From the human T2T-CHM13v2.0 reference genome, Homo sapiens, in assembly GCF_009914755.1 (NCBI RefSeq), contig NC_060926.1: DNA of 64,000 nucleotides; one strand, given 5' to 3'. The notes beneath the pieces were generated by a model that ran no database searches, had not been told where the DNA came from, and saw only the letters and a program-made list of their open reading frames with translations. This document shows positions 10,271 to 41,715 of this stretch, in pieces. The first letter of the stretch is position 1; every line of letters starts with the position of its first letter. The position numbers were made by a program, and so were the translations under genes.

Positions 10271-12636
10271 CTAATTCTAAAATTTTATCATTCCACTGAC
10301 TCCCCAATTCATTTTATTCCACCTATACACTAAAAAAATTACATAAGAAATGTAATATAGGTTTTATGTTTTAATAAAGTTTTCATAGTTTCACACTTGT
10401 TTTTAGGGCCTGGAAACTCAGAGATGTGCTAGGAGCCTTTTCTTTTTCATTATAAGCTTTATTGTGCTATTTGACCTTTTAATCTATGTTATTTTTAGTC
10501 TATATGTTATTCTAATAAAAATTTTAAAAAATCAAGTTTCATAAACTTGTTCCTGACAGAATACATGTGTTTCTCCATATTCAATCCTACTGATTCATAT
10601 AGTTTTTTCCGATACTTTAATGGGAAAATTTTCAAACGTATAGCAAAGTTCAAAGAGGCTTACAGCGAACACCCATACACCCACCACCTAGAGTCTCCTC
10701 CAAGCATTTATTCTACTTCCTTTATCAAGTATCTGCTTCTGTTAGAGAATTGATTAGATGAGTGTGATCCTTGATTAGAGGTCTTTTATGAATTCCTTCT
10801 TTTTTGGTTTGTTTTCTTAATTTGCATCAAGTTTTATTGCTGTTTCATTTAGCTCTGCGTGACTAAGATTCCTTTAATTGTGTGTATGTGCATGTGTATG
10901 TGTGTATACACACATCTTCACAACCAAAGTTTCCAGGTGTTTACACCAAAGTGGCCAGTTACCACTATTGGATTAACTATTATGTGGGAGGGTCTCTTAT
11001 ATCTCAGCACAATGTATAAAATTGTAATCTTTTTTTCTGTTCTCCTCTCAGGAGTTCCAGGTTAATTTAAATGAAACAATGCATAATTAATACTTCTCTA
11101 GGAAACAACAACCAAGCAGATTTTATTGGATATTTTTTAAGGCATCTACAAAGTTTATGCTACATTTGAATCTTGCTGTATAACCCTCAAATATTTTACT
11201 CAAGTATAAAATAAGCATTATTTTAATATATACCTATATTTTCCCAATAAATCATATGCCTAAAGCCTATCCCATTCAGTTATTCTGGTCTCCAGAAATA
11301 ATTGCCTGTTGACTTTATTGGTTTTGTCTTTACCTCTTTTCCTTCTCATTTATGTTTTTTAAACATTAATTTTAATCATAGCCTTTTTGTGAATAAGAGA
11401 TTTATTATGTATCCTTTATTCGTTGAAACTTGAATCAGTTTTCCCTGTGTTGTCTGGTTCATACCCATTTCTTATCACTGAAACTCTCCAGTCTCTTACC
11501 TCTTTTCTTTCTAGGGACTGCTCTGTAATATGTTATTACTGGTTTAAAGCAGCCCTCCTGACCACTATCCTTTGTGGGGGTTTTTTTTTCCCCCATTCCA
11601 CGTCTGTCTCTTAGGTCTGCCCTCTTTTTGATTTTTATAGTGGACCCAGACGTTTTCTTCTCTTAGGCTTTAGTAATTCATTCAGATCACTAATGTCTTG
11701 AGTGTAATTATGTGCCAAGCATTATTGAGCTATCAAGATGCCTCCACCATATTCCTATTCTGCTCAACTTGGATTCTTAGTGCCTCCTGAACACATTATG
11801 GCCATTCCCAACCAGAACCTGTGCCCTGGTTTGCAATGCCTTTCTCACCCATTCCTCCCTGTTTCATTCTTAACCAGTATCCTTCAGCACCTAGCTGCTT
11901 TGAGCTTTTGCTGAACTTAATGGGTACATTGAAAATGTGAAGTTTCTTTATATCAAGGTAATTTTATTTTAAGTTCCAGGGTACATGTGCAGGGTATGCA
12001 GGTTTGTTACATAGGAAAATGTGTGCCATGGTGGTTTGCTGCACCTATCAACCCATCACCTAAGTATTAAGCCCAGCATGCATTAGCTGTATTTCCTGAT
12101 GCTTTCCCCCACTCCCACCCACGGCAGGCCCCAGTGTGTGTTCTGTGTTGTTCCCCTAACTATGTCCATATGTTCTCGTTGTTCACCTCCCACTTACAAG
12201 TGAGAACATGTAGTGTTTTCTGTTCCCGGGTTAGTTTGTTGAGGATAATGGCTTCCAGCTGTATCCATGTCCCTGCAAAGGACATGATCTCACTCCTGTT
12301 GATGACAACATAGTATTCCATGGTGTATATGTACCACATTTTCTTTAGTCTGTCATTGATGGGAATTTAGGCTGATTCTGTGTCTTTGCTATTGTGACTA
12401 GTGCTGCAGTAAATACATGCGTGCATGTATCTTTCTTTATAATAGAATGATTTATGTTCCATTGGGTATATACCGAGTAGTGGGATTGCTGGGTCAAATG
12501 GCATTTCTGATTCTAGGTCTTTGAGGAATCGCCACACTGCCTTCCACAGTGGTTGAACTAATTTACATTCCCACCAACAATGTAAAAGCATTCCTCTCGC
12601 TCCACAGCCTTGCCAGCATCTGTTGTTTCATGACTT

Positions 12637-14172
12637 TTAAATAATTGCCATTTGGACTGGTGTGAGATGGTATCTCATTGTGGTTTTGATTTGCATTTCT
12701 CTGATGATCAGTGATGTTGAGCTTTTTTTCATAAGTTTATTAGCCATATAAATGTCTTCTTTTGAGAAGAGTCTGTTCATGTCCCTTGCCCACTTTTTTA
12801 ATGGGGTTGTTTTTTTTTTCTTGTAAATTTGTTTAAGTTTCTTGTTGACTCTGAGTATTAGACCTTTGTCAGATGGATAGATTGCAAAAATTTTCTCCCT
12901 TTCTGTAGAATGTCTGTTTGCTCTGATGATAGTTTCTTTTCCTGTGCTGAAGCCCTTTAGTTTAATCAGATCCCATTTGTCAATTTTTGCTTTGGTTGCA
13001 ATTGCTTTTGTCATCTTCATCATGAAATCTTTGCCCATGCTTATGTCCTGAATGGTATTGCCTAGATTTTTTTCTAGGGTTTTTATAGTTTTGGGTTTTT
13101 CATTTAAGTCTTTAATCCATCTTGAGTTAATTTTTGCATAAGGTGTAAGGAAGGGGTCCAGTTTCAGTTTTCTGCATATGGCTAGCCAGTTCTCCCAGCA
13201 CCATTTATTAAATAGGGAATCCTTTCCCCATTGCTTGTTTTTGTCAGGTTTGTCAAAGATCAGATGGCTGTAGTTGCACGGACTTATTTCTGAGTTCTCT
13301 ATTCTGTTCCATTGGTCTATGTGTCTGTTTTTGTAACAGTACCATGCTATTTTGGTTACTGTAGCCCTGTAGTATAGTTTGAAGTCAGGTAATGTGATGC
13401 CTCCAGCTGTGTTCTTTTTGCTTAAGATTGTCTTGGCTATATGGGCTTTTTGTTGGTTCCATATGAATTTTAAAAGAGTTTTTTCTAATTCTATGAAGAA
13501 TGTCAACGGCAGTTTAATGGGAATAGCATTGAATCTGTAAATTGCTTTGGGCAGTATGGCCAATTTCACGATATTGATTCTTCCAATCCATGAGCATGGA
13601 GTGTTTTTCCATTTGTTTGTGTCCTCTCTGATTTCCTTGAGCAGTGATTTGTAGTTCTCCTTGAAGTGATCCTTTACTTCCCTCGCTAGCTGTATTCCTA
13701 GGTATTTTATTCTCTTTGTATCAGTTGTGAATGGGAATTCATTTATGATTTGGCTCTCTGCTTGTCTATTGTTGGTGTATAGGAATGCTTGTGACTTTTG
13801 CACATTGATTTTGCATCCTGAGACTTTGCTGAAGTTGCTTATCAGCTTAAGAAGCTTTTGGGCTGAGGCAGTGGGATTTTCTAGATACAGGATCATGTCA
13901 TCTGCAAACAAAGACAATTTGGCTTCCTCTCTTCCTATGTAGATACCCTTTGTTTCTTTCTCTTGCTTGATTGCCTTGGCCAGAACTTCCATTACTAGGC
14001 TGAATAGGAGTGGTGAGAGAGGGCATCCTTGTTTATGCTGGTTTTTCAAGGGGAATGCTTCCAGCTTTTGCCCATTCAGTGTAATCCTGGCTGTGAGTTT
14101 GTCATAAACAGCTATTATTAATATTTTGAGGTACGTTCCTTCAGTGTCTAGTTTATTGAGAGTTTTGAACAT
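12637..14172 (-). pseudogene. L1 ORF2 remnant (RT C-half to start of C-terminal domain), 511 open codons
   Basis: [10 protein letters not shown] and [13 protein letters not shown] motifs; frameshifted upstream and stopped downstream, so non-autonomous. Confidence 0.9.
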
Positions 14173-14235
14173 GAAGGAATGTTGAATTTTATCACAGGCC
14201 TTTTCTGTATCTATTGAGATAACTATTTGTCCTTA

Positions 14236-14352
<117 letters not shown>

Positions 14353-15289
14353 TCAGTTTGCCAGTATTTTATTGAGGATTTCTGCATCGATATTCATCAG
14401 GGATATTGGCCTGAAGTTTTCTTTTTTTGATATATCTCTGCCAGGTTTTGGTATCAGGATAATACTGACCTCATAAAATGAGTTAGGGAGGGGTCCCTCC
14501 TTTTCGTTTGTTTGGAATAGTTTTGGAAGAAATGGTACCAGCTCCTTTTTGTATCTCTGGTAGAATTCGGCTGTAAATCTGTCTGGTCCTGGGCTTTTTT
14601 TGGTTGGTAGGTTATTTATTACTGCCTCAATTTCAGAACTCGTTATTGGTCTATTCAGGCATTCAACTTCTTCCTGGTTCAGTCTTGGGAGGGTGTATGT
14701 GTCCAAGAATTTATCCATTTCTTCTAGATTTTCTTTTTTTTTTTTTTTATTTGCAGAGGTGTTTATAGTATTCTCTGATGGTCGTTTGTATTTCAGTGGG
14801 GTCAGTGGTGATATCCCCTTATCATTTTGTATTGCGTCTATTTGATTCTTCTCTTTTTTCTTCTTGATTAGTCTAGCTAGCAGTCTATTTTATTAACTTT
14901 TTCAAAAAACCAGCTTGTGGATTCATTGATTTGTTTTTATTTTTGAAGTGTTTTTCATATCTCTGTGTCCTTCACTTCTGCTCTGATCTTGGCTATTTCT
15001 TGTCTTCTGCTAGCTTTGGAGTGTGTTTGCTCTTGGTTCTCTAGTTCTTTTAGTTGTGATGTTAGGATGTCAATTTGAGATCTTTCTAGCTTAGTGTGGG
15101 CATTTAGTGCTATAAATTTCCCTCTTAACACTGCTTTAGCTGTGTTCGAGATTCCAGTACATTATCTCTTTGTTCTTATTGATTTCAAAGAACTTCTTGA
15201 TTTCTGCCTTAATTTCATTATTTACCTAGGAGTCATTCAGGAGCAAGTTGTTCAATTTCCATGTAGTTGTATGATTTTGAGTGAGTTTC

Positions 15290-15600
15290 TTTTTTTTTTT
15301 CTTTTCTTTTTTGTTTGAGATAGATAGAGTCTCACTCTGGGTCCAGGCTAGAGTGCAGTGGCGTGATCTCGGCTCACTGCAACCTCCGCCTCCCGGTTCA
15401 AGTTATTCTCCTGCCTCAGCCTCCCAAGTAGCTGGGAATACAGACATGCACCAGCATGCCAGGCTAATTTTTGTATTTTTAGTAGAGATGGGGTTTCACC
15501 ATGTTCGCCAGGCTGGTCTCAAACTCCTGACCTCAAGTGATCCGCCCACCTCAGCCTCCTAAAGTGCTGGGATTCCGGACATGAGCCACTGCACCCGGCC
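15290..15600 (-). mobile_element. AluS (Sx/Sz-like) inserted in the L1PA
   Basis: Reverse-complement full Alu; TSD core TGAGTTTC on both sides. Confidence 0.9.
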
Positions 15601-16506
15601 TTTGAGTTTCATTAATCTGAGTTCTAATTAATTTGATTGTGCTGTGGTCTGAGAGACTGTTATGATTTCAGTACTTTTGCACTTGCTGAGGAGTGTTTTA
15701 CTTCCAATTATGTGGTCTATTTTAGAGCAAGTGCCATGTGGCGCTGAGAAGAATGTATATTCTGTTGTTTTGTGGTGGAGAGTTCTGTAGATATCTATCA
15801 GATCCACTTGATCTAGAGCTGAATTCAAGTCCTAAATATCTTTGTTAATTTTCTGTCTTGATCTGTCAGGGGTGTTAAAGTCTCCCACTATTACTGTGTT
15901 GAGAGTCCCTTTGTAGGTCTCTAAGACCTTGTTTTATGAAACTAGGTGCTCCTGTATTGAGTGCATATATAGGATAGTTAGCTCTGCTTGTTAAATTGAA
16001 CCCTTTATCATTATATAATGCCCTTCTTTGTCTTTTTTGATCTTTGTTGGTTTAAAGTCTGTTTTGTCAGCAAGTAGTACTACAAGCCCTGCTTTTTTCT
16101 GTTTTCCATTTGCTTGGTAAATTTTCCTCCATCCCTTTATTTTGAGCCTATGTATGTCTTTGCATGTGAGATGGGTCTTGTCTTTTTATCTAGCTTGCCA
16201 TTTTGTGTCTTTTAATTGGGGCATTTAACCCATTTACATTTAAGGTAATATGTTTGAATTCGACCCTGTCATCATAATGCTGGCTGGTTATTTTGCAGAC
16301 TTGTCAATGTAGTTGTTTCACAGTGTCATTGGTCTGTGTACTTCAGTGTGTTTTTGTAGTGGTTGGTAACGGTTCTTCCCTTCCATGTTTAGTGCTTCCT
16401 TCAGGAGTTCTTGCAAGGCAGGCCTGGTTGTGACAGATTACCTCAGCATCTGCTTGTCTGTAAAGGATTTTATTTCTCCTTTGCTTATGAAGCTTAAGTT
16501 TGGTCT

Positions 16507-16894
16507 AGAAGAAAAGAAAAAGAAAGAAACTCACTCAAAACCATACAACTACATGGAAATTGAACAACTAACTTGCTCCTGAATGACTCCTGGGTAAATA
16601 ATGAAATTAAGGCAGAAATCAAGAAGTTCTTTGAAGTCAATAAGAACAAAGAGATAATGTACTAGAATCTTGAACACAGCTAAAGCAGTGTTAAGAGGGA
16701 AATTTATAGCACTAAATGCTCACATTAAGCTAGAAAGATCTCAAATTGACATCCTAACATCACAACTAAAAGAACTAGAGAACCAAGAGCAAACAAACTC
16801 CAAAGCTAGCAGAAGACAAGAAATAGCCAAGATCAGAGTTGAAGTGAAAGACACAGAGATATGAAAAACAAACACTTCAAAAATAAAAACAAAT
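16507..16894 (+). repeat. Inverted locally templated copy of 14929-~15308 inserted in the L1PA
   Basis: Reverse complement of 14929-15308 including part of the Alu tail; ~11 substitutions and two 4-bp indels by eye. Confidence 0.9.
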
Positions 16895-18132
16895 TGGGTT
16901 GGAAATTCTTTTCTTTAAGAATGTTGAATACTGACCCCAAGTCTCTTCTGGCTTGTAGGGTTTCCACTGAGAATCTGATGGCCTTCCCCTTAGTAGGTGG
17001 CCTGGCCTCTCTTTCTGGCTGCCCTTATCATTTTTTCCTTCATTTTGACCTTTGAGAATCTGATGATTATGTGTCTTGGTCTATGATGTACTTCTCATGG
17101 AGTATCTTACTGGGGTTCTTGGGTTTCCTGAGATTTGAATGTTGGCCCGTCTTCCTAGGTCAGGGAAGTTCTCCTGGATTATATCTTGAAATACGTTTTC
17201 CAACTTGGTTCCATTCTCCCTGTCTCTTTCAGGTGTCTTAGTCAGTCATAGGGTTGGTCTTTTTATATAATCCCATAGTTCTTGGAGGTTTTGTTCATTT
17301 CTTTTAATTCTTTTTTCTCTAATCTTAAATGCCTGTCTTATTTCAGCAACATAGTCTTCAAGCTCTGAGATCCTTTCCTCCGTTTGATCTATTCAGTTAT
17401 TGATACTTGTGGTTGCATTGTGAAGTTTGTGTGTTGTGCTTTTCAGCTCCATCAGATCATTTATGTTCATCTCTAAACTGGTTATTCTGGTTAACAGCTC
17501 CTGTAATATTTTATCATGGTTCTTAGCTTCTTTGCATTGGTTTAGAACGTACTCCTTTAACTCAGTGAAGTTCATTATTACCCATAGTAACAAGGTGATA
17601 TTTATAACAAGGGTTTCAAATAATCTGTATAGTTTTGCAAAAGAGCTCCTGAATTTTGGGATTCTAAATTTGAATACTGTATGTTATTACTTTTCTACAT
17701 GCCAAGAGCTGTTGTAATATTTCTAGGCCATTTTTCAACACTAAGTAAGTTGCTTTGTAAGTGAACATAATTATTAAAGTGGTAAAACAACGAAGCAGAA
17801 CACTAACTTCACACTTCAGTGTATTATTTATTTTGGTTAAGGACCAATAAGACCAAGATTGTGGGTTATAATCCCATGTGGGCCAGTTGATATCCCACCA
17901 ACAAATACTTTCAGTATTCACATGAATATGACTAATTTAGTACAGACTCATGGTCAGCAGTGCAAGCTTCAGATCCCAAGATTAATAGATGCACTTTAAA
18001 ACAATATGTTTTAATGAAAGCACTTTTTTGGCAGGTTTACTTTCTTTAATGCAATGCCAGAGATACACCAACAAAGTGACATAAATGTTGTATATAAGTT
18101 CTCCATAAATAGTATAATTTAATTGGCATGTC

Positions 18133-18226
18133 ATATATATCTATAGATAGATATATTTATCTACAACAAAACAAGGATCCTATAGATATCTATCTATAGA
18201 TATATATATCTATAGATATATATATA
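18133..18226. repeat. AT-rich (TA/GATA) low-complexity tract with a 28-bp perfect palindrome
   Basis: tatctatagatatatatatctatagata at 18191-18218 equals its own reverse complement. Confidence 0.85.
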
Positions 18227-19639
18227 ATGTTAAACTATAAAAACTTCAAAACAGTCCAATAAAGAAGTAGTATAAAATTGAGAACAAATCACATTTGGGG
18301 CCAGCTCCAACAGTGGGCTGCCTAGATATGATGAGGGGAAGAGGCATTTGACAGACTTTCCTTTTGTTAGGTAGGAGACTTGGTTGTTTTTCATCCAGCT
18401 TCTTTCTCAATAGGATTTCAGGTGGCAGGCAATAGTTAGATTTAATCAAATAGACAAATGGATGAAAGACCTGTAGGGCTTTCATTGGCAAATAATGGGG
18501 TGATAAGTGTGTTTGAGAAAGATGCTGCTTGTAGCTGTGTTAACAGTGTAGCAGATAGATTGCTGAGCTTTTAAAACCAGACATTTTCTGCACTGTGTAT
18601 CTTACTAGATCTTTCCAGCAAATTGGAAGATGCATACTGGGAGGAGTTATAGTTCACTCCTTCTGCACCAGAATACCAGATCCAAAGTATTTTAACTCTA
18701 AGAGTTATAGAGAACTTTGAGAAATTTTCAGGAAGCCAGCCTTTGGTAAAATGGCTACAACGTGAATTTTGTTTCGGTGGTCCCCACCTTACCCTTTCAG
18801 TAACTGCCATCATTGACTGAGATCCTGCTGTTGTTTGGCCATCTTAGACTTCTGCCTAGACACACCTGCACTGGGAATTGTTTTGTACTCTGTCCCATCC
18901 AAAATCATCACTTCTCTGTCTCATTTCTTTCAAGTTTTTCACAAACAGATTAATCAGTTCCTTCCTAATGACTTTTTTTCTTCCTCTCTATATATTATGC
19001 ACATTTAATATCAGCTTTTATTTTAATGGTGTGAAATAAAGGAGTGTTTCTAATGGTGTAAAGTTTAAGCATCATGACCATTTACTCTGACAGCAGGTTG
19101 ATCCTGGAGTGCTACTCTTCACACTAGCTCAGTATTAGCTCAGCCCTGGCTTCCCATCCCTGTCTTTTGGTTGAATACATATACATTTAGACAAAGATAA
19201 GAAGATGTCTAGAAATGGGGATTGTACAACTTTCTTCCAGGAACAGCGGAACAGTAATTTACAGCATGGATTTGAGAACTGGAAAGAATTGAGTTAGAAT
19301 CATAATTCCATGTCTTATTAGCTGTGTGACCTAGGGTGGTATATTTAACATCCCCTTGGTAAATGAGGATAATAAAGCTTTACCTAACATTCTTATTGTG
19401 CTGCTTCAGTGAAATAATATATCTAAGAAATTTAGCATCAATATATAATGCAACATATGTAAGAAATTTAAAATATGTGTGGCACAGTATCTGGCACAGA
19501 ATAAACATTCAGAGAATTAATAAACATTCAGAGAATTGTTTTCTCTTTGCCACAGAGAATAAATTAGCAAGAAATTATTCAATGAATAATTTTAGAATTT
19601 TAAAAAAACCTAGCGTGTCTAGAGATACAATACAGTGAA

Positions 19640-20400
19640 CGAAAAAGACAGATCATAATCATCATTAAATTTCAGACCAGCAACAAAGCAAGGATCCTAA
19701 AAGCTTCCAAAGAGATCAAAACTTAGAATGCTGTCACATTGTCCAAGGCAACACTGGTAGAAAAAGTGGAGGAAACCTTCAATTTTTGCTTTTTTTTTTT
19801 TGAAGGAAAATGGTTTCCAACTGGAGAATTCTGAGCATACTCAAATTCTCAATCAAATGAGAGGACAGAATAGGCATTTTCAAACATTCAAGATCTCCTT
19901 TGCACCTTTCTTGGGGAACTGTTGAAGGATGTATTGTAACAAAAGAGTAAACTAAAAAGGGTGATAGAGAATTTAGGAAACAAGGAAAACAACATATGAA
20001 TAGAATCTCCAGGATTATTATGTTGAAGGAGGATCCAAGGATGACAGCTGTGCAACATGCATGTAAGATTATAGTCCTGATCAGAGTAGGGACATGAAGG
20101 GTTCCAGGAAGAATGGCCCCAAGATGATGAAAGCAATAGATCATCTGACATATTTGAATGTATGGGAAGGAGATTTGTACTTCTAGCAGAGAGTATGGGG
20201 ATAAATTAGTGACAGGTCTCTAGAAAATTAAGCAAAGAGAAAAATAAGGTAATTATTAACCAGGGAAAAATGATTTGTGGAATAAGAAATGTAATTGCTA
20301 CTACATAATTATACTGTGAATATTTACCTGGCTGTATAATATAAACACTAAATATTGAACTTACCAAGAATTATGATATAACTATATTTGGACCATGGAA
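19640..20400 (+). mobile_element. Ancient L1M ORF1/HAL1-like fragment
   Basis: ggatcctaaaagcttcca...gcaacactgg...tgaaggaaaatggtttccaac resembles the 3' part of an L1 ORF1-like coding region. Confidence 0.5.
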
Positions 20401-20681
20401 GAACAGAGTAAGCACATGTCCCCAAGTGCCTTTAGATTAGGGCACAACTAACTCTGGCCAGAGAGCAGATGTAATGAGTGTCATTTTGGGGCTACAACAG
20501 TGTGACCCTTCAGCCCCCTCTTCCCATGCTTCAGCAACTTGCAAGGGACAGGGATAATTGGAATGCATCCAGTAGCCTGGAAATCTCTTCTATGTTCTTT
20601 AGGACTGTGACTTCTTAGCTTAGAGAAAAGACGACTAAGAGAAGATTTGACAGCTGTCTAGCTGTCTAGCTGTCTTTTAAT

Positions 20682-21080
20682 CAGCATTGGTAAGCGTTTT
20701 CTGTAGAGGGCCAGGTAGTAAATATTTTAGGCTGTGCAGGCCATATGGTCGCTTTCCAAACTACTTAATTCTGTTGTACTGCAAATAAATGAATGAGTAT
20801 GTGTTCCAATAAAACTTTATTTATGGACATTGAAATTTAAATTTCATAGGACTTTCAGGTGTGTAAAATAAAATTATACTTTCGCTTTTTTTCCCTGGCC
20901 ATTAAAAAAATGTAAAAATCCAGTGAGCCGAGATCGTGCCACTGCACTCCAGCTTGGCGACAGAGTGAGACTCCGTCTCAAAAAAAAAAAAAAAAAAAAA
21001 AAAGTAAACATCATTCGTAGCTCTCAGGTTGTACAAACACAGGTGGAATGGGTCCATGGGCTGTACTTTGCTTACCCGTG
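20682..21080 (+). mobile_element. MER58B-like hAT MITE interrupted by an Alu fragment
   Basis: ttttctgtagagggccaggtagtaaatattttaggc...gttccaataaaactttatttatggaca...tttgcttacccgtg. Confidence 0.75.
20921..21003 (+). mobile_element. Severely 5'-truncated Alu (last ~60 nt plus A tail)
   Basis: cagtgagccgagatcgtgccactgcactccagc...A25. Confidence 0.88.
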
Positions 21081-22097
21081 CTTTAATATTTGAAGGATTG
21101 TTATCCACAGAAGTTAAAAGCATCATACTGTTTGTTTTTAGAGGACAAACTAAGGAGTGGGAGTCCCAGAGGGATAAACTTCAGCCTCAAATTTCCTTGG
21201 GTAATAAGAGCATTTCTACAAATTAGAGCTGCCTGCCAGGAAAAAGGCTGCCTCAAGGCATCTGTGTCCTTGCCGCCCCCACACACAGGTGGGAGGTTGC
21301 ACTAGATGACCTCTGTGCTCCCTTTTAATGGTTACATTACATGGACCTGTAACACAGTTAACATGGGTCATTCTGATAAAACCATTGTAGTGTTTTCCAA
21401 AGTACAGTAACTTCCCACCAGTTTTAGGACAGTGCTTTAGAAAAAAGACCAAAATGTTTGTGTGTATTGCCTTAACTATTGTAAATTAAGCATTTATAGT
21501 GCGGAGATTTACAGAGACTACTTGCTAACCTAAACGTGTTTGCACACAGCCGTATTTTCTAATTTAAATTCAATCATAATATCCAAACAGCCCTTGCTTA
21601 GACCAGCTAAAGGTATAAACTTCATTTTCATCTCATTAGGCCACCTGGAAGCTGCAATCAGTGAGTAGTCTTGACGTCAGTAGTCTGTCTGCTTCATTAA
21701 AATGTTAATTTCATGGCTTTAATTCCCTTTGTAGAATGTACCAATGCAGGACACTGTATGCAGATTTATTCTAAAGCAGACCAATTTACATATTGTTTTT
21801 AGTTTATTCAGACTTTCTCTTTGTATTGCTGTTAAGAACTGCTTTAGTGTTTAAGAAAGTGTTCAAACATTTAGATATGTAAGGCAATTTCAGCCTAAAA
21901 TGAATTTTAAAAGAATTCTGAGAAAGCTTAATTTCTTCATCAGTGACATAATTCTCACTAAGAGTGAAATATACATTTCCTCTCCTACAACTCTGAAGCT
22001 GCACCTTTAAAGAAAGAAAGGTATAATAGCAGTTTTAGCAAATGATCAGGATGAATCTAGCACCTAATAGAGAAATGGATGAGCAAATCTTTTATGT

Positions 22098-22349
22098 CAG
22101 TGGTCCCCAACCTTTTTGGCACCAGGCACTGGTTTTGTGGAAGACCATTTGTCCACGGCTCGGGGAGGGAGTGGGGGGATGGTTTCGGAATGAAACTGTT
22201 CCACCTCAGATCATCAGGCATTAGTTAGATTCTCATAAGGAGCGCGCAACCTAGATCCCTCACTTGCACAGTTCACAGGAGGGTTCTTGCTACCATGAGA
22301 ATCTAATGCTCCCCACTCCCCACTCTGTTGATCAGGCAGGAGGCAGAGC
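22098..22349 (+). mobile_element. MER1B hAT element, right end deleted
   Basis: cagtggtccccaacctttttggcaccagg...gaaactgttccacctcagatcatcaggcattag; stops at ggaggcagagc with no right TIR. Confidence 0.85.
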
Positions 22350-22520
22350 GAGGGAAGTAAAGGACCACTTCAAGGAGAACTACAAATCACTGCTCAAGGA
22401 AATCAGAGAGGACACAAACAAATGGAAAAACACTCCATGCTCATGGATTGGAAGAATCAATATCGTGAAATTGGCCATACTGCCCAAAGCAATTTACAGA
22501 TTCAATGCTATTCCCATTAA
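22336..22520 (+). CDS. LCLAT1: Candidate alternative terminal coding exon of LCLAT1 ([10 protein letters not shown]...LQIQCYSH*)
   Basis: Branch CTAAT (22303-22307), pyrimidine tract, CAG ending at 22335. Read in phase 1 like the canonical last exon, it gives 61 codons to TAA at 22518-22520. AATAAA at 22823 and 23287. The implied 308-aa length matches my unverified recollection of a curated short isoform. Confidence 0.65.
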
Positions 22521-23483
22521 ACTGCCGTTGACATTCTTCATAGAATTAGAAAAAACTCTTAAAATTCATATGGAACCAACAAAAAGCCCATATAGCCAAG
22601 ACAATCTTAAGCAAAAAGAACACAGCTGGAGGCATCACATTACCTGACTTCAAACTATACTACAGGGCTACAGTAACCAAAATAGCATGGTACTGTTACA
22701 AAAACAGACACATAGACCAATGGAACAGAATAGAGAACTCAGAAATAAGTCCGTGCAACTACAGCCATCTGATCTTTGACAAACCTGACAAAAACAAGCA
22801 ATGGGGAAAGGATTCCCTATTTAATAAATGGTGCTGGGAGAACTGGCTAGCCATATGCAGAAAACTGAAACTGGACCCCTTCCTTACACCTTATGCAAAA
22901 ATTAACTCAAGATGGATTAAAGACTTAAATGAAAAACCCAAAACTATAAAAACCCTAGAAAAAAATCTAGGCAATACCATTCAGGACATAAGCATGGGCA
23001 AAGATTTCATGATGAAGATGACAAAAGCAATTGCAACCAAAGCAAAAATTGACAAATGGGATCTGATTAAACTAAAGGGCTTCTGCACAGGAAAAGAAAC
23101 TATCATCAGAGCAAACAGACATTCTACAGAAAGGGAGAAAATTTTTGCAATCTATCCATCTGACAAAGGTCTAATATTCAGAGTCAACAAGAAACTAAAA
23201 CAAATTTACAAGAAAAAACAACCCCATTAAAAAAGTGGGCAAGGGACATGAACAGACACTTCTCAAAAGAAGACATTTATATGGCTAATAAACTTATGAA
23301 AAAAAGCTCAACATCACTGATCATCAGAGAAATGCAAATCAAAACCACAATGAGATACCATCTCACACCAGTCCAAATGGCAATTATTTAAAAGTCATGA
23401 AACAACAGATGCTGGCAAGGCTGTGGAGCGAGAGGAATGCTTTTACATTGTTGGTGGGAATGTATATTAGTTCAACCATTGTG
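22347..23483 (+). repeat. Inverted ~99% identical copy of L1PA segment 12545-13687
   Basis: By-eye alignment gives 7 substitutions and 2 small indels in ~1140 bp. ORF-track peptides ([12 protein letters not shown]..., [12 protein letters not shown]...) recur in the 511-aa ORF. No TSD or poly(A). Confidence 0.95.
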
Positions 23484-23655
23484 TAGCTGGGACTACAGGC
23501 GTCCACTACCACGCCCGGCTAATTTTTTTGTATTTTTAGTAGAGACAGGGTTTCACCATGTTAGCCAGGATGGTCTCGATCTCCTGACCTCATGATCCAC
23601 CCGCCTCAGCTTCCCAAAGTGCTGGGATTACAGGCATGAGCCACCGCGCCCAGCC
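23483..23655 (-). mobile_element. AluY-like, 3' part and tail deleted
   Basis: gtagctgggactacaggc...ttagccaggatggtctcgatctcc...cccagcc; begins abruptly at the L1-copy junction. Confidence 0.88.
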
Positions 23656-24164
23656 AAGGAAATATCTTTATAGATGTCTTCTTGTGTACCTGTGTAAGAA
23701 TTCCTTTGGGATATACAGTCATGCAACACATAATGACGTTCTAGTTAGTGGCAAACCACATATATGATGGCAGTCTCATAAGATCATAATGGAGCTAGAA
23801 AATTCCTATCACCTGGTGACATCATCACATGTTTGTGATGATGCTGATGTAAACCACTATGCTACCAGTTGTGTAAAACAGTAGCACATAAAATTATATA
23901 CCGTAATGATAATGACTATGTTACTGATTTACATAGTTACTGTACTATACTTTTTATTGTTACTTGAGTGTATTCCTTCTGCTTATAGTAAAAGCAGTAA
24001 AACAGCCCCAGGCAGGTCCTTCAGGAGGTATTCCAGAAGAAGGCATTGCTGTCATAGGACATGACAGCTCCATGCTTGTTATTACCTCTGAAGACCTTGC
24101 AGTGAGACAAGATGTGGAGGTGAAGACAGTGATATTGATGATCCTGACCCTGTGTAGGCCTAGG

Positions 24165-24165
<1 letters not shown>

Positions 24166-24204
<39 letters not shown>
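24166..24204. repeat. (TG)~19 microsatellite
   Basis: Direct reading. Confidence 0.95.
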
Positions 24205-24205
<1 letters not shown>

Positions 24206-24357
24206 TTAATTTTTAACAGTTTTTTTTAAAAAAGTTTTTATAATTAAAGGTTATGGAATCAGGATAGAAAGAAAGTCTTTTTGTACAACTTTACAATAGG
24301 TTTGTGTTTTAAGCGAAGTGTTATAAAAGAGTCAAGTTTTAAACATTTAGAAGTTTA

Positions 24358-24619
24358 CTCACACCTGTAATCCCAGCACTTTGGGAACCCGAGGCAGGTG
24401 GATCACCTGAGGTCGGGAGTTCAAGACTAGCCTGGCCAACAAGTTGAAACCTTGTCTCTTCTAAAAATACAAATATTAGCTGGGCGTGGTGGCAGGTGCC
24501 TCTATTCCCATCTACTTGGGAGGCTGAGGCAGGAGAATAGCTTGAACCTGGGAGGCGGATGTTGCTTGCACTCCAGCCTGGGTGACAGAGTGAGACTCCA
24601 TCTCAAAAAAAAAAAAAAA
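24358..24619 (+). mobile_element. AluS with 5' trimming and right-arm deletion
   Basis: ctcacacctgtaatcccagcac...ggaggcggatgttgcttgcactccagcc...A tail. Confidence 0.88.
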
Positions 24620-25128
24620 TTTATAAGTTTAGAGTAAAAAAGTTACAGTAAGCTAAGGTTAATTTATTATTGATGAAAGTTTTTTAATAAATTTAGTGTA
24701 GCCTAAGTGTACAGTGTTTATTAAAGTCTACAGTAGTGTACAGTGGTGTCCTAGGCCTTCACATTCACTCACCCTCACTCACTGACTCACCCAGAGCAAC
24801 TTCCAGTCCTGCAGACTCCATTCATGGTAAGTGCCCTGTAGAGGTATACTATTTTTTATCTTTTATACTGTATTTTTACCATACCTTTTCTATGTTTAGA
24901 CACACAAATACTTAGCATTATGTTACAATTGCCAACAATATTCAGTACAGTAACATGCTGTACAGGTTTGTAGCCTAGGAGCAACAGGCCATACCATATA
25001 GCCTAGGTGGGTCATAGACTATATACTGTCTAGGTTTGTGTGAGTATGCTCTATGATGTTCCCATGACAAAAAAATTGCCTAAAGACACATCTCTCAGAA
25101 CATATCCCCGTCAAGTGACACATAGTTG

Positions 25129-25860
25129 TATGTCCAAGAGTAGAACTGCTGAGTCATAGGGTTTGGTAACCTTAATTTGACCAGCCCCAAATTATACTAC
25201 ATAATAGATACTCCCCTCTAAACACCCACTGGCAATGCACAAGGGTGCCTGTTTCCTCTCATTCCTGTGAACACTTGGTATTATCCAGCTTTCTACTCTT
25301 TGCCAGTCAAATAGGTATATTTTAATTTGGTTTTGTCTGATTACAAAGGATTTTCACATGCCTGATATTTTCTGGGTTTCCTCATCTATTCATTGCCTGT
25401 TTATATCTTGTCTGTGTTTCTATTGGGATTACTATAGTGACTTGTTAATTCGCACTAGTTCTTATGTTCTAGATATAATCCCTTGTTGAATTTTAGACAT
25501 TGCAGGTATGTTCTATTTTATTACATATTCATTGAACAGAAATTCCTGGTGTAATCAAATTAAGAAGTTTTTATCTTACGACCTATGCTCTTGAAGTCTG
25601 GTTTTTAAAAACCTTTCTTGTTACTTGGTCTCCATTTTCTTTTGTTAATTGTATAATTATGTTTTACATTTCAGCTTTATCCATCTGGAGTCCCTTACAT
25701 GTGTTGTTTGGTGTGAGGATCTGGTTTTATTTTTCTCCAACAGTGTGTACTTAATCTGTTATTCTCCATTGATTTGTGATGTTACCTTTATCATATATTA
25801 AGTCCCCATATATTCATGAGAATGGCTTTGAACTCTATTCTGATACTTGTTTTTCCACAA
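25129..25860 (-). mobile_element. Ancient L1M fragment (continues at 23656-23715 across the Tigger)
   Basis: gagtagaactgctgagtcatagg...aacacttggtattatc...ccatctggag resemble old L1 3' sequence. Confidence 0.55.
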
Positions 25861-28800
25861 CCACTTGATTCTTTTAGAATGTATTTTCCATAGTGAAGAC
25901 CCAGTTTCTTCTAAATCTCAAGGAACTAGTTTATGCATGTGTTATACCAGGATAGCCTTTTTGTGTGCATAACTGTTTAGGCATTTCAGCCCACAGTGAT
26001 CCTGTCCTCCTTTGAACTCATAGTGTTCATTCTCTACTACACTCACCTCACTTCTCTTAAAATTTTCTATTAACTTGTATTCGTTTCCTGTGTTATTACT
26101 TAACTTTTCACATATTTATATGTTGTACTTCAACTAGATTATAAACTTCTAAAAGGCAAGGATTGCTTCCATGTCTTTAAATCTCCCATGGTAGCTGTAG
26201 CTAGCACAGGACTTAAAATCATTATCATAAGCATGATTTAGTGAGCAATTATTAAACTCTTTATTGATACTTTTGATGTGATGAATGCATGTCTTAACAT
26301 AATTTTAAGCACATAAAGGCAATGACCGATTTTTGAAGGATATAGGACAAATATGCAGTTTCTACATGTACAAATTGAACATAGCCATACCCCCTGCATT
26401 TTTCTAATAACTAGACTTTGTCACATATTACTTCCTCTATTTCTTAAAAGGTTTTAGTTTACTAATTTTTTCGTTCCTTCTTTAGTAATTGCATTTTTTT
26501 TTTTAGGTTTCCTTAATAAACCCTGTGAAAAGCAATGTGCTAAATAAATTATATGCAGGGCAAAGCAATACATTATAATTAGGCATTCCATTATTGAATT
26601 GATGCCTCTGGCTTCTCATGGTCTCTGTCTAATCCTGAAACAAATTCTTTTTGTGGACAAATATTAGCCTATAATAATTATTCATCTAAGCTAACGCTTT
26701 TCATTAAATCTCCTTCTGATTAAGATAGCTCCATAAGTACAGACTGATTTAATTTAACATGATTTATCCACTTGTGTATCAAGGTCTGGTGGAAATTGTT
26801 TTTAACACCAGAGGATTGTGAATATTAAGATCATCTTTATATTAACAGATCTCTCAGGTATTTAAGACCTTGTTGTTTGAATAGTTATATAAGCCTAGGT
26901 CTGATGTCACTCTGCTAAATTCAAGAGTATCACAAGTGCTGTAACAGGCTGTCATTAAAAACAATATGGATTCTGTTTTATATTATAATGTTGGAGCTTA
27001 GAGTTAGTACATTCTTGTGTTACTTGGGTTTGGGAATCAATTTTCATTCCAGCTGGTTGGTCCAACACATTTAATGTCTTTTCTGTTTTACCAGAAGTTC
27101 AGTGTTATTAAAAACAAGTAAATCATAGATATATATTCTGAATTAAGGGTCTCCACGGACATGAATATAACTTTTTAAAAAATTTCTTGGACTTAACTGT
27201 TATTATTTCCTCACCTGTTACCATCCTTGTGCTTTTCTTCAGTTTTTTTAATGCTGGCTATGTAATAGATACCAAACACTGAGTTTAATTTTGTTTTTTT
27301 TTCACTTCTTCCTTGATCATCTTTCCCCCAATATTCCTCCCTTAATTTGTTAAATTCTGGCTTCACCACTGCTCTTCTACTTTTAGCTTTTTTTTTTTTT
27401 TCCTATCAGTAGTCAACAGACTCATTAGCATTTTTCTTCTGGCCTTTTTGTCCATTTTTTTTCTTTTTGGTCCTTTTATAGTCTTTCCTGCTTCATTATA
27501 TATGCATGAGAAAGTTTGCATTGCTCTATGTGAACATGATAAAGCTACATGAATTAATTCTATGAAACCAAAGCATATATTCTAATTTGCTGCAACCAAA
27601 AATTCTTGAAAATAAACTATATAATGTCCTAATTATAATTTAGCTCCAGTTTTAGGAAATCCCAGAGAACAGAGAGTGTGTGTGTATACACTCACACTTT
27701 CAGTTGAGGGTGAAAGAGAGTGCCATGAAAGCAAAAGGAAAGGCATTCTAGCATGTGGAACTTTCTGAGGTCCCATTTCCAGCCGTATCCTCTTTATTTT
27801 CAGGTTTCTAAGAGTTGTTAACTGTTCTTTCTCTCTCCCCCTGACTCTGCTCTGCCCCATGTGTGCTGTTCTCAGAAGACAGTGGTGTGTATGGTAGGAC
27901 CCTGAGTCAGTAGGCTGAAGACTTACAGAAAGAAGGTACCTTGGAGTCAGGACTGGAAGCTGAGGGATAACAGGCCAAGTCAGGCTGAGATTCTTAACTG
28001 GTCTGGGCTCTGGGCATAGCAGCAAAGAAGAGCTTACTTCATCTGGGTCAGCTGAGGGAAGTGGTTCATGAACCGCTTAGCAGACCACTTGAACTAATAG
28101 GAGGAGGATGACGCAGAACTCAAGTGAAGTACTGTGGTCATTTGCAGAAGAGTTTCTCCTGGGAGGAGGTCAGAGTAGAAATGGGCGTATCATGCCCATA
28201 AGGCAGCAATTACTGTTTTCAGAGCCGTGTCTGCACTGATGGAAATGCCAGCTCTGTGAAATTTTTTTCAAGCTGGTGGGACTCCCATGTGTCCTGTGGA
28301 TAGAAAGAAAAAAAATAGCACAGTAGAAAATGAAGCTTTCTTTTCTGTGAGGAAAAGACTTTCTGTGAGGAGGTTGGTGGTTCTATTTAAAGACACAGTC
28401 TTGAGAGTTGATTAGGAAACAAGTACTTCTACAGTAATACCTTAATTAATGAAGAGGCTATATTCGGGAATGTTTAATGAAGTTTCTGTTGTTATCAGAG
28501 AGAAAATGAAGCAAGCACAGGGGATTGCATTCCAGAATGTCAGGAAAGAATTTCAGTTTAAAAACAACACTGTATGTTTAACATCGTCAAATATGCCATA
28601 ACTAAAGAGTATTTATATCACGGTTTGAAGGGAGAGGGAGAGAGGAGCATATCAAACTAACATAAGCTCCTTAAACCTATAAAAGGCACCTATCATCATT
28701 GAAGAGGTCTCTAGCTTCCTGTCCTTGTGGCGCCCTGTGCCTATTCAGATGTTGGTCATTTAGTGCTGTTGACCTACTGTTAACACCACATACATGTGAC

Positions 28801-29775
28801 CTTGACTTCCCAGTATATCCTCTGAAACATTATTATCTCAGCTTGCCTGACAACTCATGAAGAACCCCAGTGCTTTAACAATAATATAGTGATTGCACAG
28901 ATTGCAAGTAGCAGAACTACAGAGTATCTAAGGCTTGGCAAAGAATGTCTCATGTCCAGAACAGAAGCACAAATTCCTGTCTGCCTTCTCTGCTATGGTC
29001 TGAGGGATCATTAATCACAATTACTTTCCAGCGACAGTCTCTCATAATGCACCTTTCTACTGCAGGCTGTTAGGGAAGGCTCTATTCTTAGGCTCTCTGC
29101 CAAGAAGTACCCCAGAGACAGAAGCTCAGCTCAGTTTCCCCTTTTCTGCTTATTCAATTTATATATTTCCTGAGCTCACTGAAGCAGCACAGGAATACAC
29201 CAATGAATAAAATAAACAAAAATTTAGACAATAAGTACGTAAAATTTATAGTATGTCAGATGATGGGGCTTACAGAGAAAATAAATCAAGGAAGAGGGAA
29301 GACTGAAGTAGGGTAGTCAGGGCTCCCCTGAAAAGAGGAATTTGGGGGAAGAGGATCCCTAGTAGAAGGAACAATAACGTGCCTGAGATGAGAATGTGCC
29401 TAGTGTGTTCAAAGAAGAACAAGAGATGCAGTGTGGCTAGACCAGATCAAGTCACATGAGCAGTAGCAGAGAATGAGGGCAGAAAGGTAAATGTTTGCCA
29501 GATAGGCCACCATGGGAGTTTGGTGTTCTCTCTGAGATGGGCAGCCACTGGGGAGAAGGGGTGAAGGGGGAGGGGTTATAAGATTGTGACTGACATTATT
29601 AAAGGATTACTCTGGCTGTAATGTTAAGAAAAATCTGTAGGTCGGGCAGGTGGGCAAACAGAGAAACCAATTAGAAAGTTATTTGTAATAATGCAGGAAA
29701 GAGAAGTGGAGAGTGAGGTAAAATTAGTGAGGTTGCAAAAAATGGCTGGATTCTAGATACATTTTAAGGTGGAAG

Positions 29776-30743
29776 TGTAGGGGTGGGTTGCCCCTACACA
29801 CCTGTGGGTGTTTCTCGTAAGGTGGGACGAGAGATTTGGAAAAGAAAAAGACACAGAGACAAAGTATAGAGAAAGAAATAAGGGGAACCGGGGAACCAGC
29901 GTTCAGCATATGGAGGATCCCGCCAGCCTCTGAGTTCCCCTAGTATTTATTCATCATCTGTGGGTGTTTCTCGAAGAGGGGGATGTGTCAGGGTCACAAG
30001 ACAATTGTGGGGAGAGGGTCAGCAGACAAACATGTGAACAAAGGTCTTTGCATCATAGACAATGTAAAGGATTAAGTGCTGTGCTTTTAGATATGCATAC
30101 ACATAAACATCTCAATGCTTTACAAAGCAGTATTGCTGCCCACAGGTCCCACCTCCAGCCCTAAGGCGGTTTTTCCCTATCTCAGTAGATGGAGCATACA
30201 ATCGGGTTTTATACCGAGACATTCCATTGCCCAGGGACGGGCAGGAGACAGATGCCTTCCTCTTGTCTCAACTGCAAGAGGCATTCCTTCCTCTTTTACT
30301 AATCCTCCTCAGCACAGACCCTTTACGGGTGTCGGGCTGGGGGACGGTCAGGTCTTTCCCTTCCCACGAGGCCATATTTCAGACTATCACATGGGGAGAA
30401 ACCTTGGACAATACCTGGCTTTCCTAGGCAGAGGTCCCTGCGGCCTTCCGCAGTTTTTGTGTCCCTGGGTACTTGAGATTAGGGAGTGGTGATGACTCTT
30501 AAGGAGCATGCTGCCTTCAAGCATCTGTTTAACAAAGCACATCTTGCACCGCCCTTAATCCATTTAACTCTGAGTTGACACAGCACACGTTTCAGAGAGC
30601 ACGGGGTTGGGGGTAAGGTTATAGATTAACAGAATCTCAAGGCAGAAGAATTTTTCTTAGTACATAACAAAATGGAGTCTCCTATGTCTACTTCTTTCTA
30701 CACAGACACAGTAACAATCTGATCTCTCTTGCTTTTCCCCACA
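29776..30743 (-). mobile_element. HERV-K(HML-2) LTR5_Hs solo LTR, full length 968 bp
   Basis: Reverse complement begins tgtggggaaaagcaagagagatcag and ends acccacccctaca; perfect 6-bp TSD TGGAAG at 29770-29775 and 30744-30749. Confidence 0.96.
30046..30213 (-). promoter_or_regulatory. LTR5_Hs promoter/enhancer core: TATAAAA (30207-30213) and octamer-like ATGCAAAG (30046-30053)
   Basis: Motifs read directly on the minus strand; LTR poly(A) signal AATAAA at 29946-29951 (minus). Confidence 0.7.
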
Positions 30744-35240: not shown

Positions 35241-36536
35241 TCTAGTGCCAGGTGTCTGGTAACAAGTGCTATCATGTAGATGGTAACAAGTCTGGTAACA
35301 AGTGCTATAGTAGAGCTATATGGCTTCTTAATGTTATTTTAGACATGAGGAATTTAGAAGACCAAGAATAGTACACCTAATGACTTGGGTAATTTTTCAA
35401 ACACATCTTCCTACGTAATCCCTGGTTGAGCATCTCTGCCCTAGTGAGCTGCTAGGAGTAGGAAAAAGGTTGAGAACCACTGGTTTTGATTATACATTAA
35501 CCTTGTATCTTTATATACTACTTATAGACACTAGAACTAGATAAAAATTTCGCTAGTAATTACAGCCCTAGCTGAGTGAATACTGGTGTTGAAAAGATGG
35601 TAATATGAAACTTACTTCCCCACATGGCTCTAACACCAAAACCATAGCATTCTCTTTTGGATTCAGGCTCCAGACCACCAGATCTGCTTTCCAGCTCACC
35701 CTGGCATTAGTCAGTAAACCTCTATAAGGTATCTGCATTCCTTGCCACCTTCACTTTCCATCTTATCCCACCAATAAAGGTTTTTACAAATATGAAACTT
35801 TACAAGATATTCTAGTGCTAATAAAAAAGATACTTTACTCATGCACCTATTTTTAAAAGAATTTCTGGTTGTTTTCCTTGTGAATAAAGGATTGGGATTA
35901 ACTGAAAAACTGGGCTGAATTAGAGGTCAGGAAGGCCACTATTCAACCCAGCCCAGGTAAATAACTTTGTCATTAATAAGCTGAGCATGCCAAATGCAGC
36001 AAGAATTCATTTTGAGTGGTAAACTTAGAAGCCACGAGGATCTTCAGGCAAAATTGCAGTATTGGCAGAGCTTATCTTTGCCTTCTTCCCTTTAAGTTTT
36101 TCCCCCCAATCCTTAGTCATTTCGTGTCCCAGAGTTATCCAGAATCATATCTAGCAAGATTTATCTCCCAGGTTCCAAAGTGGGAATAAACTATTTTCAA
36201 TGCCCTAAACAAATCTCCTGCTATATGAGCACAAGTTATGGTAGTTAACTGTTATTACTGAGTAATTCACTCTGTCCTGTAAGTTAAAATTGTTGTTGCC
36301 TTAAATAAATTTTAAAATAATTTTAATAGGCAACATTCGTTGATCACTTACTAAGGATAATCTCAATTAATCCTCCCCAAGGTTATGTATGTTTCTCAGG
36401 GCCATACATCAGCAAGGAGTGGAATTAAGCAAAAAAACCTAGGGTTTTATCTGATTCCAGAACCCAGCTCTTGAATACAACTTCCCATGGTCCTCTCTGC
36501 TTAGAACTATCCCCATAACCCAGTATTTATTTCCCC

Positions 36537-36711
36537 AGTGTGGCCTTTCCAGCCCCTGTATGTGATCATCATCTCTTGGAGTGCTTGCTAAAATACAGTT
36601 TGCCTCATCCCAGCCGTGTGAACTAAGGGAGAGTCTTTGGGAATGAAGCCCAGAACTCTTCATTTTCAATTCCCCAAGTATTCTTAGGCTACTAGAGTTT
36701 GAGAACTACTG
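36537..36711. mobile_element. MER5-like hAT MITE
   Basis: cagtg...tgcttgctaaaatacag...agtttgagaactactg. Confidence 0.6.
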
Positions 36712-37426: not shown

Positions 37427-37566
37427 AAAGTCCTTATTTACCCCTCATGTATTGTTATTCTCCCTGCTTAAATTTTAGGATCAGTAACTACTCATCCAGA
37501 TGTTGACTCTCATGTTCTAATTGAATTTAAACAAAAAGTTACTACTACAATGAATGTTTTGATGTT

Positions 37567-37720: not shown

Positions 37721-37722
37721 AT

Positions 37723-41715
<3,993 letters not shown>

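What the first reader, a model, noticed from the sequence alone, without database searches (positions are those of the whole stretch)
22347..23483. Young 1.14-kb inverted templated insertion patching a deletion
Seen: reverse complement of 12545-13687 with 7 substitutions and 2 indels (~0.6%), far closer than two independent old L1PA insertions would be. There is no TSD or poly(A). The left junction cuts MER1B at a 3-bp AGC microhomology; the right junction cuts an AluY mid-arm with 1 bp shared. Inference: a break was repaired by template switching (MMBIR/FoSTeS-like or RNA-templated) from ~9 kb upstream, deleting the MER1B end, the intervening DNA and the Alu tail. The low divergence is compatible with a hominin-era event. 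A repeat masker would hide it as an ordinary L1.
Basis: partly seen in the sequence, partly recalled or inferred. Interest (0 to 1): 0.7.

Follow-up and report, generated by a model that had tools for sequence, protein, structure and literature searches.

The report
Inverted repair patch forming LCLAT1 exon
A 1.1-kb piece of an old jumping-gene copy is duplicated backwards 9 kb away inside the human LCLAT1 gene, likely as a DNA-repair patch made before humans and bonobos split, and it supplies the predicted tail of a shortened, likely inactive form of the enzyme; this is a known kind of event.

Summary
Window 22347-23483 is the reverse complement of 12545-13687, with 7 substitutions and 2 indels; the next-best genomic match scored is 88%. 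The copy replaces the end of a MER1-type element and the tail of an Alu (at least ~190 bp lost). It has 3-bp and 1-bp microhomologies, no TSD and no poly(A), and the donor L1 is unbroken. Best reading: a local template-switch repair, the 'deletion plus nearby inverted duplication' class already described (Pace 2009; PCAWG 2020). Two corrections and additions. (1) It is likely not human-specific: a 308-aa protein labelled 'LCLAT1 isoform X3 [Pan paniscus]' carries the junction-spanning peptide and differs from CHM13 at three sites. (2) The junction lies 11 bp inside an annotated alternative LCLAT1 exon (start 22336). A locus-specific splice acceptor in the MER1 element runs into an off-frame L1 reading, replacing the last exon with 61 residues. 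That keeps the four catalytic motifs but drops both membrane helices. Function is untested; low-level cryptic splicing is most likely. An older inverted copy of the same kind sits in the donor L1 (16509-16894). Verdict: new member of a known kind, interest 0.33.

The parts
22347..23483 (+). Inverted templated copy of the donor L1 segment (C-terminal part of ORF2; no 3' UTR or poly(A)), now sense to LCLAT1
12545..13687 (-). Donor segment inside an old L1 copy (about 12% from its nearest scored paralogs); the L1 continues unbroken on both sides
22098..22349 (.). Truncated MER1-type element (MER1B by recall): one terminal repeat present, 78-114 bp and the other terminal repeat missing; ends in the AGC microhomology
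22310..22335 (+). Cryptic 3' splice site: 13-bp pyrimidine-rich insert (22310-22322) and AG at 22334-22335, each absent from 11 of 11 paralogs (all read TG)
22336..22520 (+). Coding part of the alternative LCLAT1 exon: phase 1, a split Gly codon plus 60 codons and a TAA stop; 11 bp MER1-only, the rest an off-frame reading of L1 ORF2
   Evidence: hub annotation (exon start 22336)
23483..23655 (-). Head of an Alu (AluY-like by recall), cut mid-arm; 109-110 bp of body plus the tail missing; 1 bp shared with the copy
13688..22346 (.). 8,659-bp spacer between the two inverted repeats; same orientation as the donor L1 that runs into it
16509..16894 (+). Second, older inverted local copy (of 14929-15308, 94.3%) replacing about 15 bp of the same L1; independent event of the same kind

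Best explanation
The 1,137-bp segment is an inverted copy of L1 sequence 8.7 kb upstream that replaces at least ~190 bp of MER1 and Alu DNA, likely written in one germline repair event by DNA template switching, likely before the human-bonobo split, and it now encodes the predicted 61-residue tail of an alternative, likely inactive, LCLAT1 isoform. Steps. (1, inferred) A break or stalled fork left a 3' end at the MER1 AGC. (2, inferred) The end annealed through those 3 bases to exposed plus-strand L1 DNA at 13687 and copied 1.14 kb backwards. (3, inferred) It rejoined inside the Alu at 23483, dropping the DNA between. (4, shown) The result places L1 ORF2 sequence in the sense of LCLAT1, 11 bp behind a locus-specific AG with a pyrimidine tract. 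(5, annotated in human and in a bonobo-labelled protein, not tested here) Exon 5 splices to 22336 in phase 1, giving a 308-aa protein that lacks the C-terminal domain, both membrane helices and the KKxx end. (6, inferred) This is low-level cryptic splicing without a selected role.
For: Structure. Local donor: 99% vs at most 88% for the other 38 of 40 scored matches. Donor intact: 26 of 26 paralog alignments run across both donor ends, one of them by only 12 bp. Homology stops exactly at both junctions, with no unconverted L1 remnant. Differences polarised on 26 paralogs (majority state 21-25 of 26): 5 arose in the donor and 2 in the copy, as expected for two copies drifting after one duplication. 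Age: P0001, 308 aa, 'isoform X3 [Pan paniscus]', cluster of 10, 98% over 100% of the 60-aa query; it aligns to the copy from residue 248 but to the donor only from 252, and carries the copy's Pro258. Splicing: exon 5 ends in phase 1 before GT; hub annotation gives an exon start at 22336, exactly after the AG. Domain loss: P0001 has PF01553 only, and PF16076 lies wholly in the canonical last exon. Motifs at 123-233 and membrane helices at 343-365 and 369-387 are from PMC8753187 (passages); the new tail is hydrophilic (maximum 19-residue hydropathy -0.87 vs 2.04). Class precedent: PMC2671141 and PMC7025897 (472 such two-jump structures).
Against: No outgroup DNA was available, so the pre-event allele and the deletion size are not seen. 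The microhomology is weak (about 5.7% and 45% by chance). The bonobo evidence is one database label on a cluster representative whose 10 members could not be listed; residues 1-36 were not compared. 0.62% is low for a pre-split event: P(7 or fewer) = 0.31, 0.12 and 0.04 for 0.8%, 1.0% and 1.2% expected divergence, and it is below the 0.89% mean that Pace reports for human-specific cases. Six of 7 substitutions lie in the right 400 bp (post hoc P = 0.007; 0.038 with indels counted), which hints at later gene conversion and makes the sequence clock unreliable. The size (1,137 bp) and distance (8.7 kb) fall outside Pace's proximal class (at most 619 bp, under 5 kb). No RNA or protein data were examined; 'isoform X' labels are predicted models.
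Confidence: 0.74

Rival explanations
1. One replication-based pass inverted the 8.7-kb spacer with a flanking inverted duplication, and recombination between the two 1.1-kb repeats later flipped the spacer back; the spacer might still toggle, which would turn the cryptic acceptor antisense.
For: The two new junctions (13687 to 22349; 12545 to 23483) are the same in both histories (follows from the geometry). PCAWG notes multiple solutions for such two-jump structures. Uneven divergence hints at exchange between the repeats.
Against: It needs an extra step. CHM13 and the bonobo-labelled isoform imply the same spacer orientation. No coordinate starting 3064 or 3065 was found in the 3 supplements of the T2T inversion paper PMC10150506, whose Table S1 has 375 rows and 44 samples in CHM13 v1.1 coordinates.
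Confidence: 0.08
2. The template was RNA: nascent LCLAT1 pre-mRNA (plus strand, already transcribed upstream of the break) was reverse-transcribed from the left break end.
For: The geometry fits: extension from the left end needs a plus-strand template from upstream. The older copy at 16509-16894 has the same upstream-and-inverted geometry.
Against: Two cases carry no statistical weight. Fold-back onto exposed plus-strand DNA gives the same geometry. No poly(A), splice removal or other RNA mark is present.
Confidence: 0.07
3. The event is much older (early ape or catarrhine), or an independent L1 fragment sat here, and gene conversion between the inverted repeats produced the 99% identity.
For: There is a 719-bp stretch without substitutions next to a 400-bp stretch with 6. 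The truncated Alu is 94-95% identical to its 5 nearest fetched paralogs, so an older date is allowed.
Against: Identity extends to the last base at both junctions and the microhomology is with the donor's own flank. Even the diverged part is about 1.5%, far from the 12% of independent L1s. An independent insertion would need to be an internal ORF2 fragment with no tail or TSD.
Confidence: 0.09
4. Assembly artefact in CHM13.
For: None found; both copies are repeat sequence.
Against: Nine differences separate the copies, falling on both sides. The junction peptide occurs in an independently derived, bonobo-labelled protein.
Confidence: 0.01

Closest known systems
Repair-mediated duplication (RD) by capture of proximal DNA, Pace et al. 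2009 (PMC2671141; read parts 1-3 of 8, passages, part 1 of 15 of Table S1 plus searches)
   Same: Germline, locally templated insertion with microhomology plus deletion, no poly(A) or TSD, a single donor; one of their cases (ACSBG2) is inverted and transcribed.
   Different: Longer (1,137 vs at most 619 bp), further (8.7 kb vs under 5 kb) and with a larger deletion (at least ~190 bp vs 1-15 nt); it bridges two different repeats, so their interrupted-element screen could not see it. No chr2 row starting 305-308 in Table S1 (the hg18 position is a recalled conversion). The older copy at 16509-16894 fits their class closely.
[quoted passage not shown] 2020 PCAWG (PMC7025897; passages)
   Same: Identical topology: two inverted junctions, one deletion, one nearby duplication; attributed to copy-and-paste template switching.
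   Different: Those are somatic (472 instances); this one is an old germline event shared with an ape.
Non-classical (endonuclease-independent) L1 insertion, Sen et al. 2007 (PMC1920257; abstract and section 5)
   Same: 3'-truncated L1 piece, no TSD, no poly(A), target deletion, microhomology.
   Different: Their set is limited to young L1s (under 2% from consensus). This L1 is about 12% from its nearest scored paralogs and has a 99% local DNA donor, so it is not retrotransposition of an active element.
Transposon exonisation giving alternative terminal exons (general knowledge; search listing only)
   Same: An intronic repeat supplies an acceptor and a coding tail. The same off-frame L1 peptide ends a predicted marmoset IDO2 isoform (P0026).
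   Different: Here the exon is a chimera whose acceptor (MER1) and coding body (L1) were joined by a repair junction rather than by an insertion.

Membership tests
Repair-mediated duplication (Pace 2009, proximal class) | Single identifiable donor on the same chromosome | tested here: met
   99% donor vs at most 88% for the other 38 of 40 scored matches; 40 of 19,423 candidates scored
Repair-mediated duplication (Pace 2009, proximal class) | Microhomology, deletion or filler at the breakpoints; no poly(A) tail | tested here: met
   3-bp and 1-bp overlap, MER1 and Alu ends missing, no tail
Repair-mediated duplication (Pace 2009, proximal class) | Donor within 5 kb (their ad hoc cut-off); observed lengths up to 619 bp | tested here: not met
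   8,659-bp spacer and 1,137-bp copy. It works like an RD but falls in their 'distant' bin
Repair-mediated duplication (Pace 2009, proximal class) | Empty pre-insertion site in an outgroup genome | not testable with these tools
   No other primate genome is held; only paralogous repeats were used as a proxy
Local two-jump: deletion plus nearby inverted duplication (PCAWG) | Two inverted-orientation junctions on one chromosome | tested here: met
   13687 to 22349 and 12545 to 23483
Local two-jump: deletion plus nearby inverted duplication (PCAWG) | One segment gained and a nearby segment lost, donor retained | tested here: met
   Donor continuous in 26 of 26 paralog alignments; lost MER1 part and Alu flank copy not found in the window; total deletion size unknown
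Non-classical L1 insertion (Sen 2007) | 3'-truncated L1 with no TSD and no poly(A) | tested here: met
Non-classical L1 insertion (Sen 2007) | Young L1 (under 2% from consensus), derived from an active element | tested here: not met
   Nearest scored paralogs are 87-88% identical; the donor is a local old copy with 2 stops in its ORF2 frame
Transposon-derived alternative terminal exon | Acceptor AG with pyrimidine tract, in phase with the upstream exon | tested here: met
   AG at 22334-22335; 17 of 22 pyrimidines vs 15 of 22 at the canonical acceptor; phase 1 on both sides
Transposon-derived alternative terminal exon | Spliced transcript annotated | tested here: inconclusive
   Hub annotation gives an exon start at 22336 and P0001 matches it, but both may be predicted models; no reads were seen
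Transposon-derived alternative terminal exon | Defined poly(A) site; stable mRNA and protein | not testable with these tools
   Six A[AT]TAAA hexamers lie in the copy, none at 37800-38100; no expression data available
Recurrent inversion between inverted repeats | Both orientations of the spacer segregate | tested here: inconclusive
   Not in one T2T inversion call set of 44 samples; other catalogues and ape assemblies not seen

The most novel reading that the evidence does not exclude
A single repair event in the human-Pan ancestor built a new protein-coding terminal exon by fusing a MER1 splice acceptor to off-frame L1 sequence. The resulting 308-aa LCLAT1, with catalytic motifs but no membrane anchors, is expressed and acts as a decoy or mislocalised regulator of phosphatidylinositol and cardiolipin remodelling found only in humans and their closest apes; the flanking inverted repeats could switch it off by inversion.
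Probability: 0.06. Interest if true: 0.72.

Novelty: new member of a known kind. Interest (0 to 1): 0.33.

Why it matters
It is a clean, roughly datable germline example of a deletion patched by a nearby inverted copy, hidden inside repeat annotation, and it shows that such a patch can become coding sequence: the annotated 308-aa LCLAT1 isoform ends in L1 sequence that exists at this place only because of the event. If the isoform is real and stable it would be a lineage-restricted variant of a lipid-remodelling enzyme tied to mitochondrial and signalling phenotypes (PMC8753187, passages). More likely it is splicing noise, in which case the practical lesson is that this database isoform has a mutational-accident origin. 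The 1.1-kb, 99% inverted repeats also make the 8.7-kb spacer a candidate for rare inversion.

Tried and rejected
Closer donor elsewhere: none among 40 of 19,423 candidates scored. Staggered-break inversion with the spacer now inverted: rejected, the donor L1 runs across both ends in 26 of 26 paralog alignments. Displaced rather than deleted DNA: the missing MER1 part (11 paralog queries) and a second copy of the Alu flank were not found in the window; the short Alu 3' fragment at 20921-21003 looked by eye like a separate insertion with its own flanking duplication and was not tested further. Outgroup isoforms reading into an intact MER1: of 239 saved proteins, 118 had the exon-5 motif, 89 continued canonically by pattern, 29 did not, and only P0001 had this tail; 120 of 189 hits were listed. 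Selection on the tail: no power (one change vs P0001). The stop-free frame is shared with the donor, so it was inherited; 19 of 123 paralogous L1 matches are also stop-free (my count). Prior description: not found in 10 full-text searches; the LCLAT1 hits concern a promoter AluYa5, a promoter Alu and a HERV-W in intron 2. Pace Table S1 and the Porubsky 2023 supplements gave no row; the control search used the wrong id format, and one search then showed plain numeric coordinates, so stands. Three paper ids were not held, including the 2022 Cell inversion catalogue; supplements of bioRxiv preprints are closed, and unseen inversion or ape structural-variant tables could list this locus. Earlier scan findings were not available. 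No structure prediction or complex job was run.

Full report
1. The observation. Window 22347-23483 is the reverse complement of 12545-13687: 1143 columns, 7 mismatches, 2 gaps. The substitutions are at 22365, 23084, 23177, 23197, 23258, 23465 and 23479; the indels are 2 bp and 4 bp in T/A runs. A search of the whole CHM13 assembly scored 40 of 19,423 candidates: the copy itself, the donor at 99%, and 38 others at 87-88%. The donor is therefore local and the L1 is old. The segment is the C-terminal part of ORF2, with no 3' UTR, poly(A) or TSD.

2. The junctions. Left: 11 paralogs of the MER1-type element (83-86% identical) align up to 22349. Ten carry AGC there and all continue for 78-114 bp to the second terminal repeat, where the window switches to L1; the donor also has AGC at that point. 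Right: the copy ends on a G that is also the first retained base of an Alu; 7 of 8 other Alus in the window have G at that position, and 5 of 5 close paralogs have 109-110 bp more body plus a tail. At least about 190 bp is therefore missing, plus an unknown amount between. Neither the lost MER1 part nor a second copy of the Alu's flank was found in the window. By chance, 3 bp or more of overlap occurs about 5.7% of the time and 1 bp or more about 45%, so only the left overlap carries weight. The names MER1B and AluY are recalled.

3. The donor is intact. All 26 paralog alignments run across both donor ends (one by only 12 bp), so the spacer is not inverted relative to the L1. With these paralogs as outgroup, 5 substitutions arose in the donor and 2 in the copy (majority state 21-25 of 26).

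4. Age. Divergence is 0.62% (0.25-1.27%), or 6.2 Myr (2.5-12.7) at an assumed 0.5e-9 per base per year. A search with the 60 codons after the junction returned as best hit P0001, 308 aa, named 'lysocardiolipin acyltransferase 1 isoform X3 [Pan paniscus]', 98% identical over the whole query, a cluster of 10 sequences. It aligns to the copy from residue 248, across the MER1-L1 junction, but to the donor only from 252. It differs from CHM13 at residues 64, 193 and 276 (my notebook says 63 for the first; 64 is correct); other mismatches are at exon edges, and residues 1-36 were not compared. So the junction exists in a non-human ape and the event likely predates the human-Pan split. Against this, 7 substitutions is on the low side (P = 0.04-0.31), and 6 of 7 lie in the right 400 bp (post hoc P = 0.007, or 0.038 with indels), which may reflect partial gene conversion between the repeats. 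Gorilla and orangutan status is unknown.

5. The junction lies in an exon. The hub's annotation starts an alternative LCLAT1 exon at 22336. An AG at 22334-22335 precedes it, with 17 pyrimidines in 22 upstream bases, against 15 of 22 at the canonical last-exon acceptor. The AG and a 13-bp pyrimidine-rich insert at 22310-22322 are each absent from 11 of 11 paralogs, so the acceptor is locus-specific; whether it arose with the repair or separately is unknown. Exon 5 ends in phase 1, as the canonical last exon requires. Splicing to 22336 gives one split codon plus 60 codons in an off-frame reading of L1, then TAA at 22518-22520. The product keeps PF01553 and loses PF16076. By the table in PMC8753187 (passages) all four motifs (123-233) are kept and both membrane helices (343-365, 369-387) are lost, as is the C-terminal KKxx (its role in ER retention is general knowledge). 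The tail is hydrophilic. No strong donor-like motif lies in the copy and there is no GT after 38035, so the annotated span 22336-38035 is probably one long predicted terminal exon (inference). I recall a curated human 308-aa isoform, but no call shows it.

6. Is the isoform functional? Probably not. Of 118 LCLAT1 representatives with the exon-5 motif, 29 continue non-canonically by pattern, mostly with unrelated lineage-specific tails or inserts, and only P0001 has this one. Predicted cryptic exons in this long intron are thus common across mammals. The same off-frame L1 peptide ends a predicted marmoset IDO2 isoform. The open frame is shared with the donor, so it was inherited rather than selected; 19 of 123 paralogous matches are also stop-free (my count). 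No expression data were examined.

7. Mechanism. Shown: an inverted copy, an intact donor, loss at both flanks, the overlaps, the splice site and phase. Inferred: a 3' end at the MER1 AGC annealed to exposed plus-strand DNA at 13687, copied 1.14 kb and rejoined in the Alu (confidence 0.74). Rivals: inversion with flanking duplication later flipped back, which has the same junctions (0.08; no entry in the 44-sample T2T inversion set of PMC10150506); a nascent-RNA template, which fits the geometry but leaves no mark (0.07); an older event masked by conversion (0.09); artefact (0.01).

8. Comparison with what is known. Pace et al. 2009 describe 824 germline repair-mediated duplications with microhomology and deletion. 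This one works the same way but is longer and further than their proximal class, and I found no row for it in Table S1 (hg18 position by recalled conversion). PCAWG counts 472 somatic structures of this topology. Sen et al. 2007 concerns young L1s only. A second event in the same donor L1 (16509-16894, 94.3% to 14929-15308, next paralogs at most 88%, about 15 bp replaced) shows how ordinary the process is: two in one 64-kb window. Ten full-text searches found no description of this locus or of the isoform's origin. Of the remaining papers opened I saw passages only. Subscription papers, the 2022 Cell inversion catalogue and preprint supplements were not seen.

9. Verdict. Interest 0.33.

Noticed in passing
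window 16509-16894 (donor 14929-15308): Older inverted local copy inside the same L1: 94.3% to its donor vs at most 88% elsewhere, replacing about 15 bp, 1.2 kb from the donor. It begins in the T-rich tail of the Alu at 15291-15600, so it likely postdates that Alu. It fits the Pace proximal class; not found in their Table S1 by coordinate prefix.
   Followed up: partly
window 7322-7551: 116-bp tandem duplication with 1 mismatch (99.1%), apparently young.
   Followed up: no
window 22310-22322: 13-bp pyrimidine-rich insert in the MER1 element, 25 bp from the junction, itself a short tandem repeat and loosely similar to the reverse complement of 22160-22180; it may be a small template switch, possibly from the same repair.
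   Followed up: partly
window 22338-22339: A second AG lies 4 bp downstream of the annotated acceptor; if used it would put exon 5 in frame with L1 ORF2 itself (frame 0) until the 2-bp deletion at 22559. No annotation for it was seen.
   Followed up: no
window 20921-21003: Short 3' Alu fragment with a long A tail, by eye flanked by a target duplication inside another repeat; not the missing tail of the Alu at 23483 as far as inspection shows.
   Followed up: partly
window 22366-23083 vs 23084-23483: Uneven divergence between the inverted repeats (0 substitutions in 718 bp, then 6 in 400 bp), and 4 of 7 substitutions are A/T transversions; unexplained, possibly gene conversion.
   Followed up: partly
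P0026: A predicted marmoset IDO2 isoform ends in the same off-frame L1 ORF2 peptide, an independent exonisation of the same L1 region.
   Followed up: no
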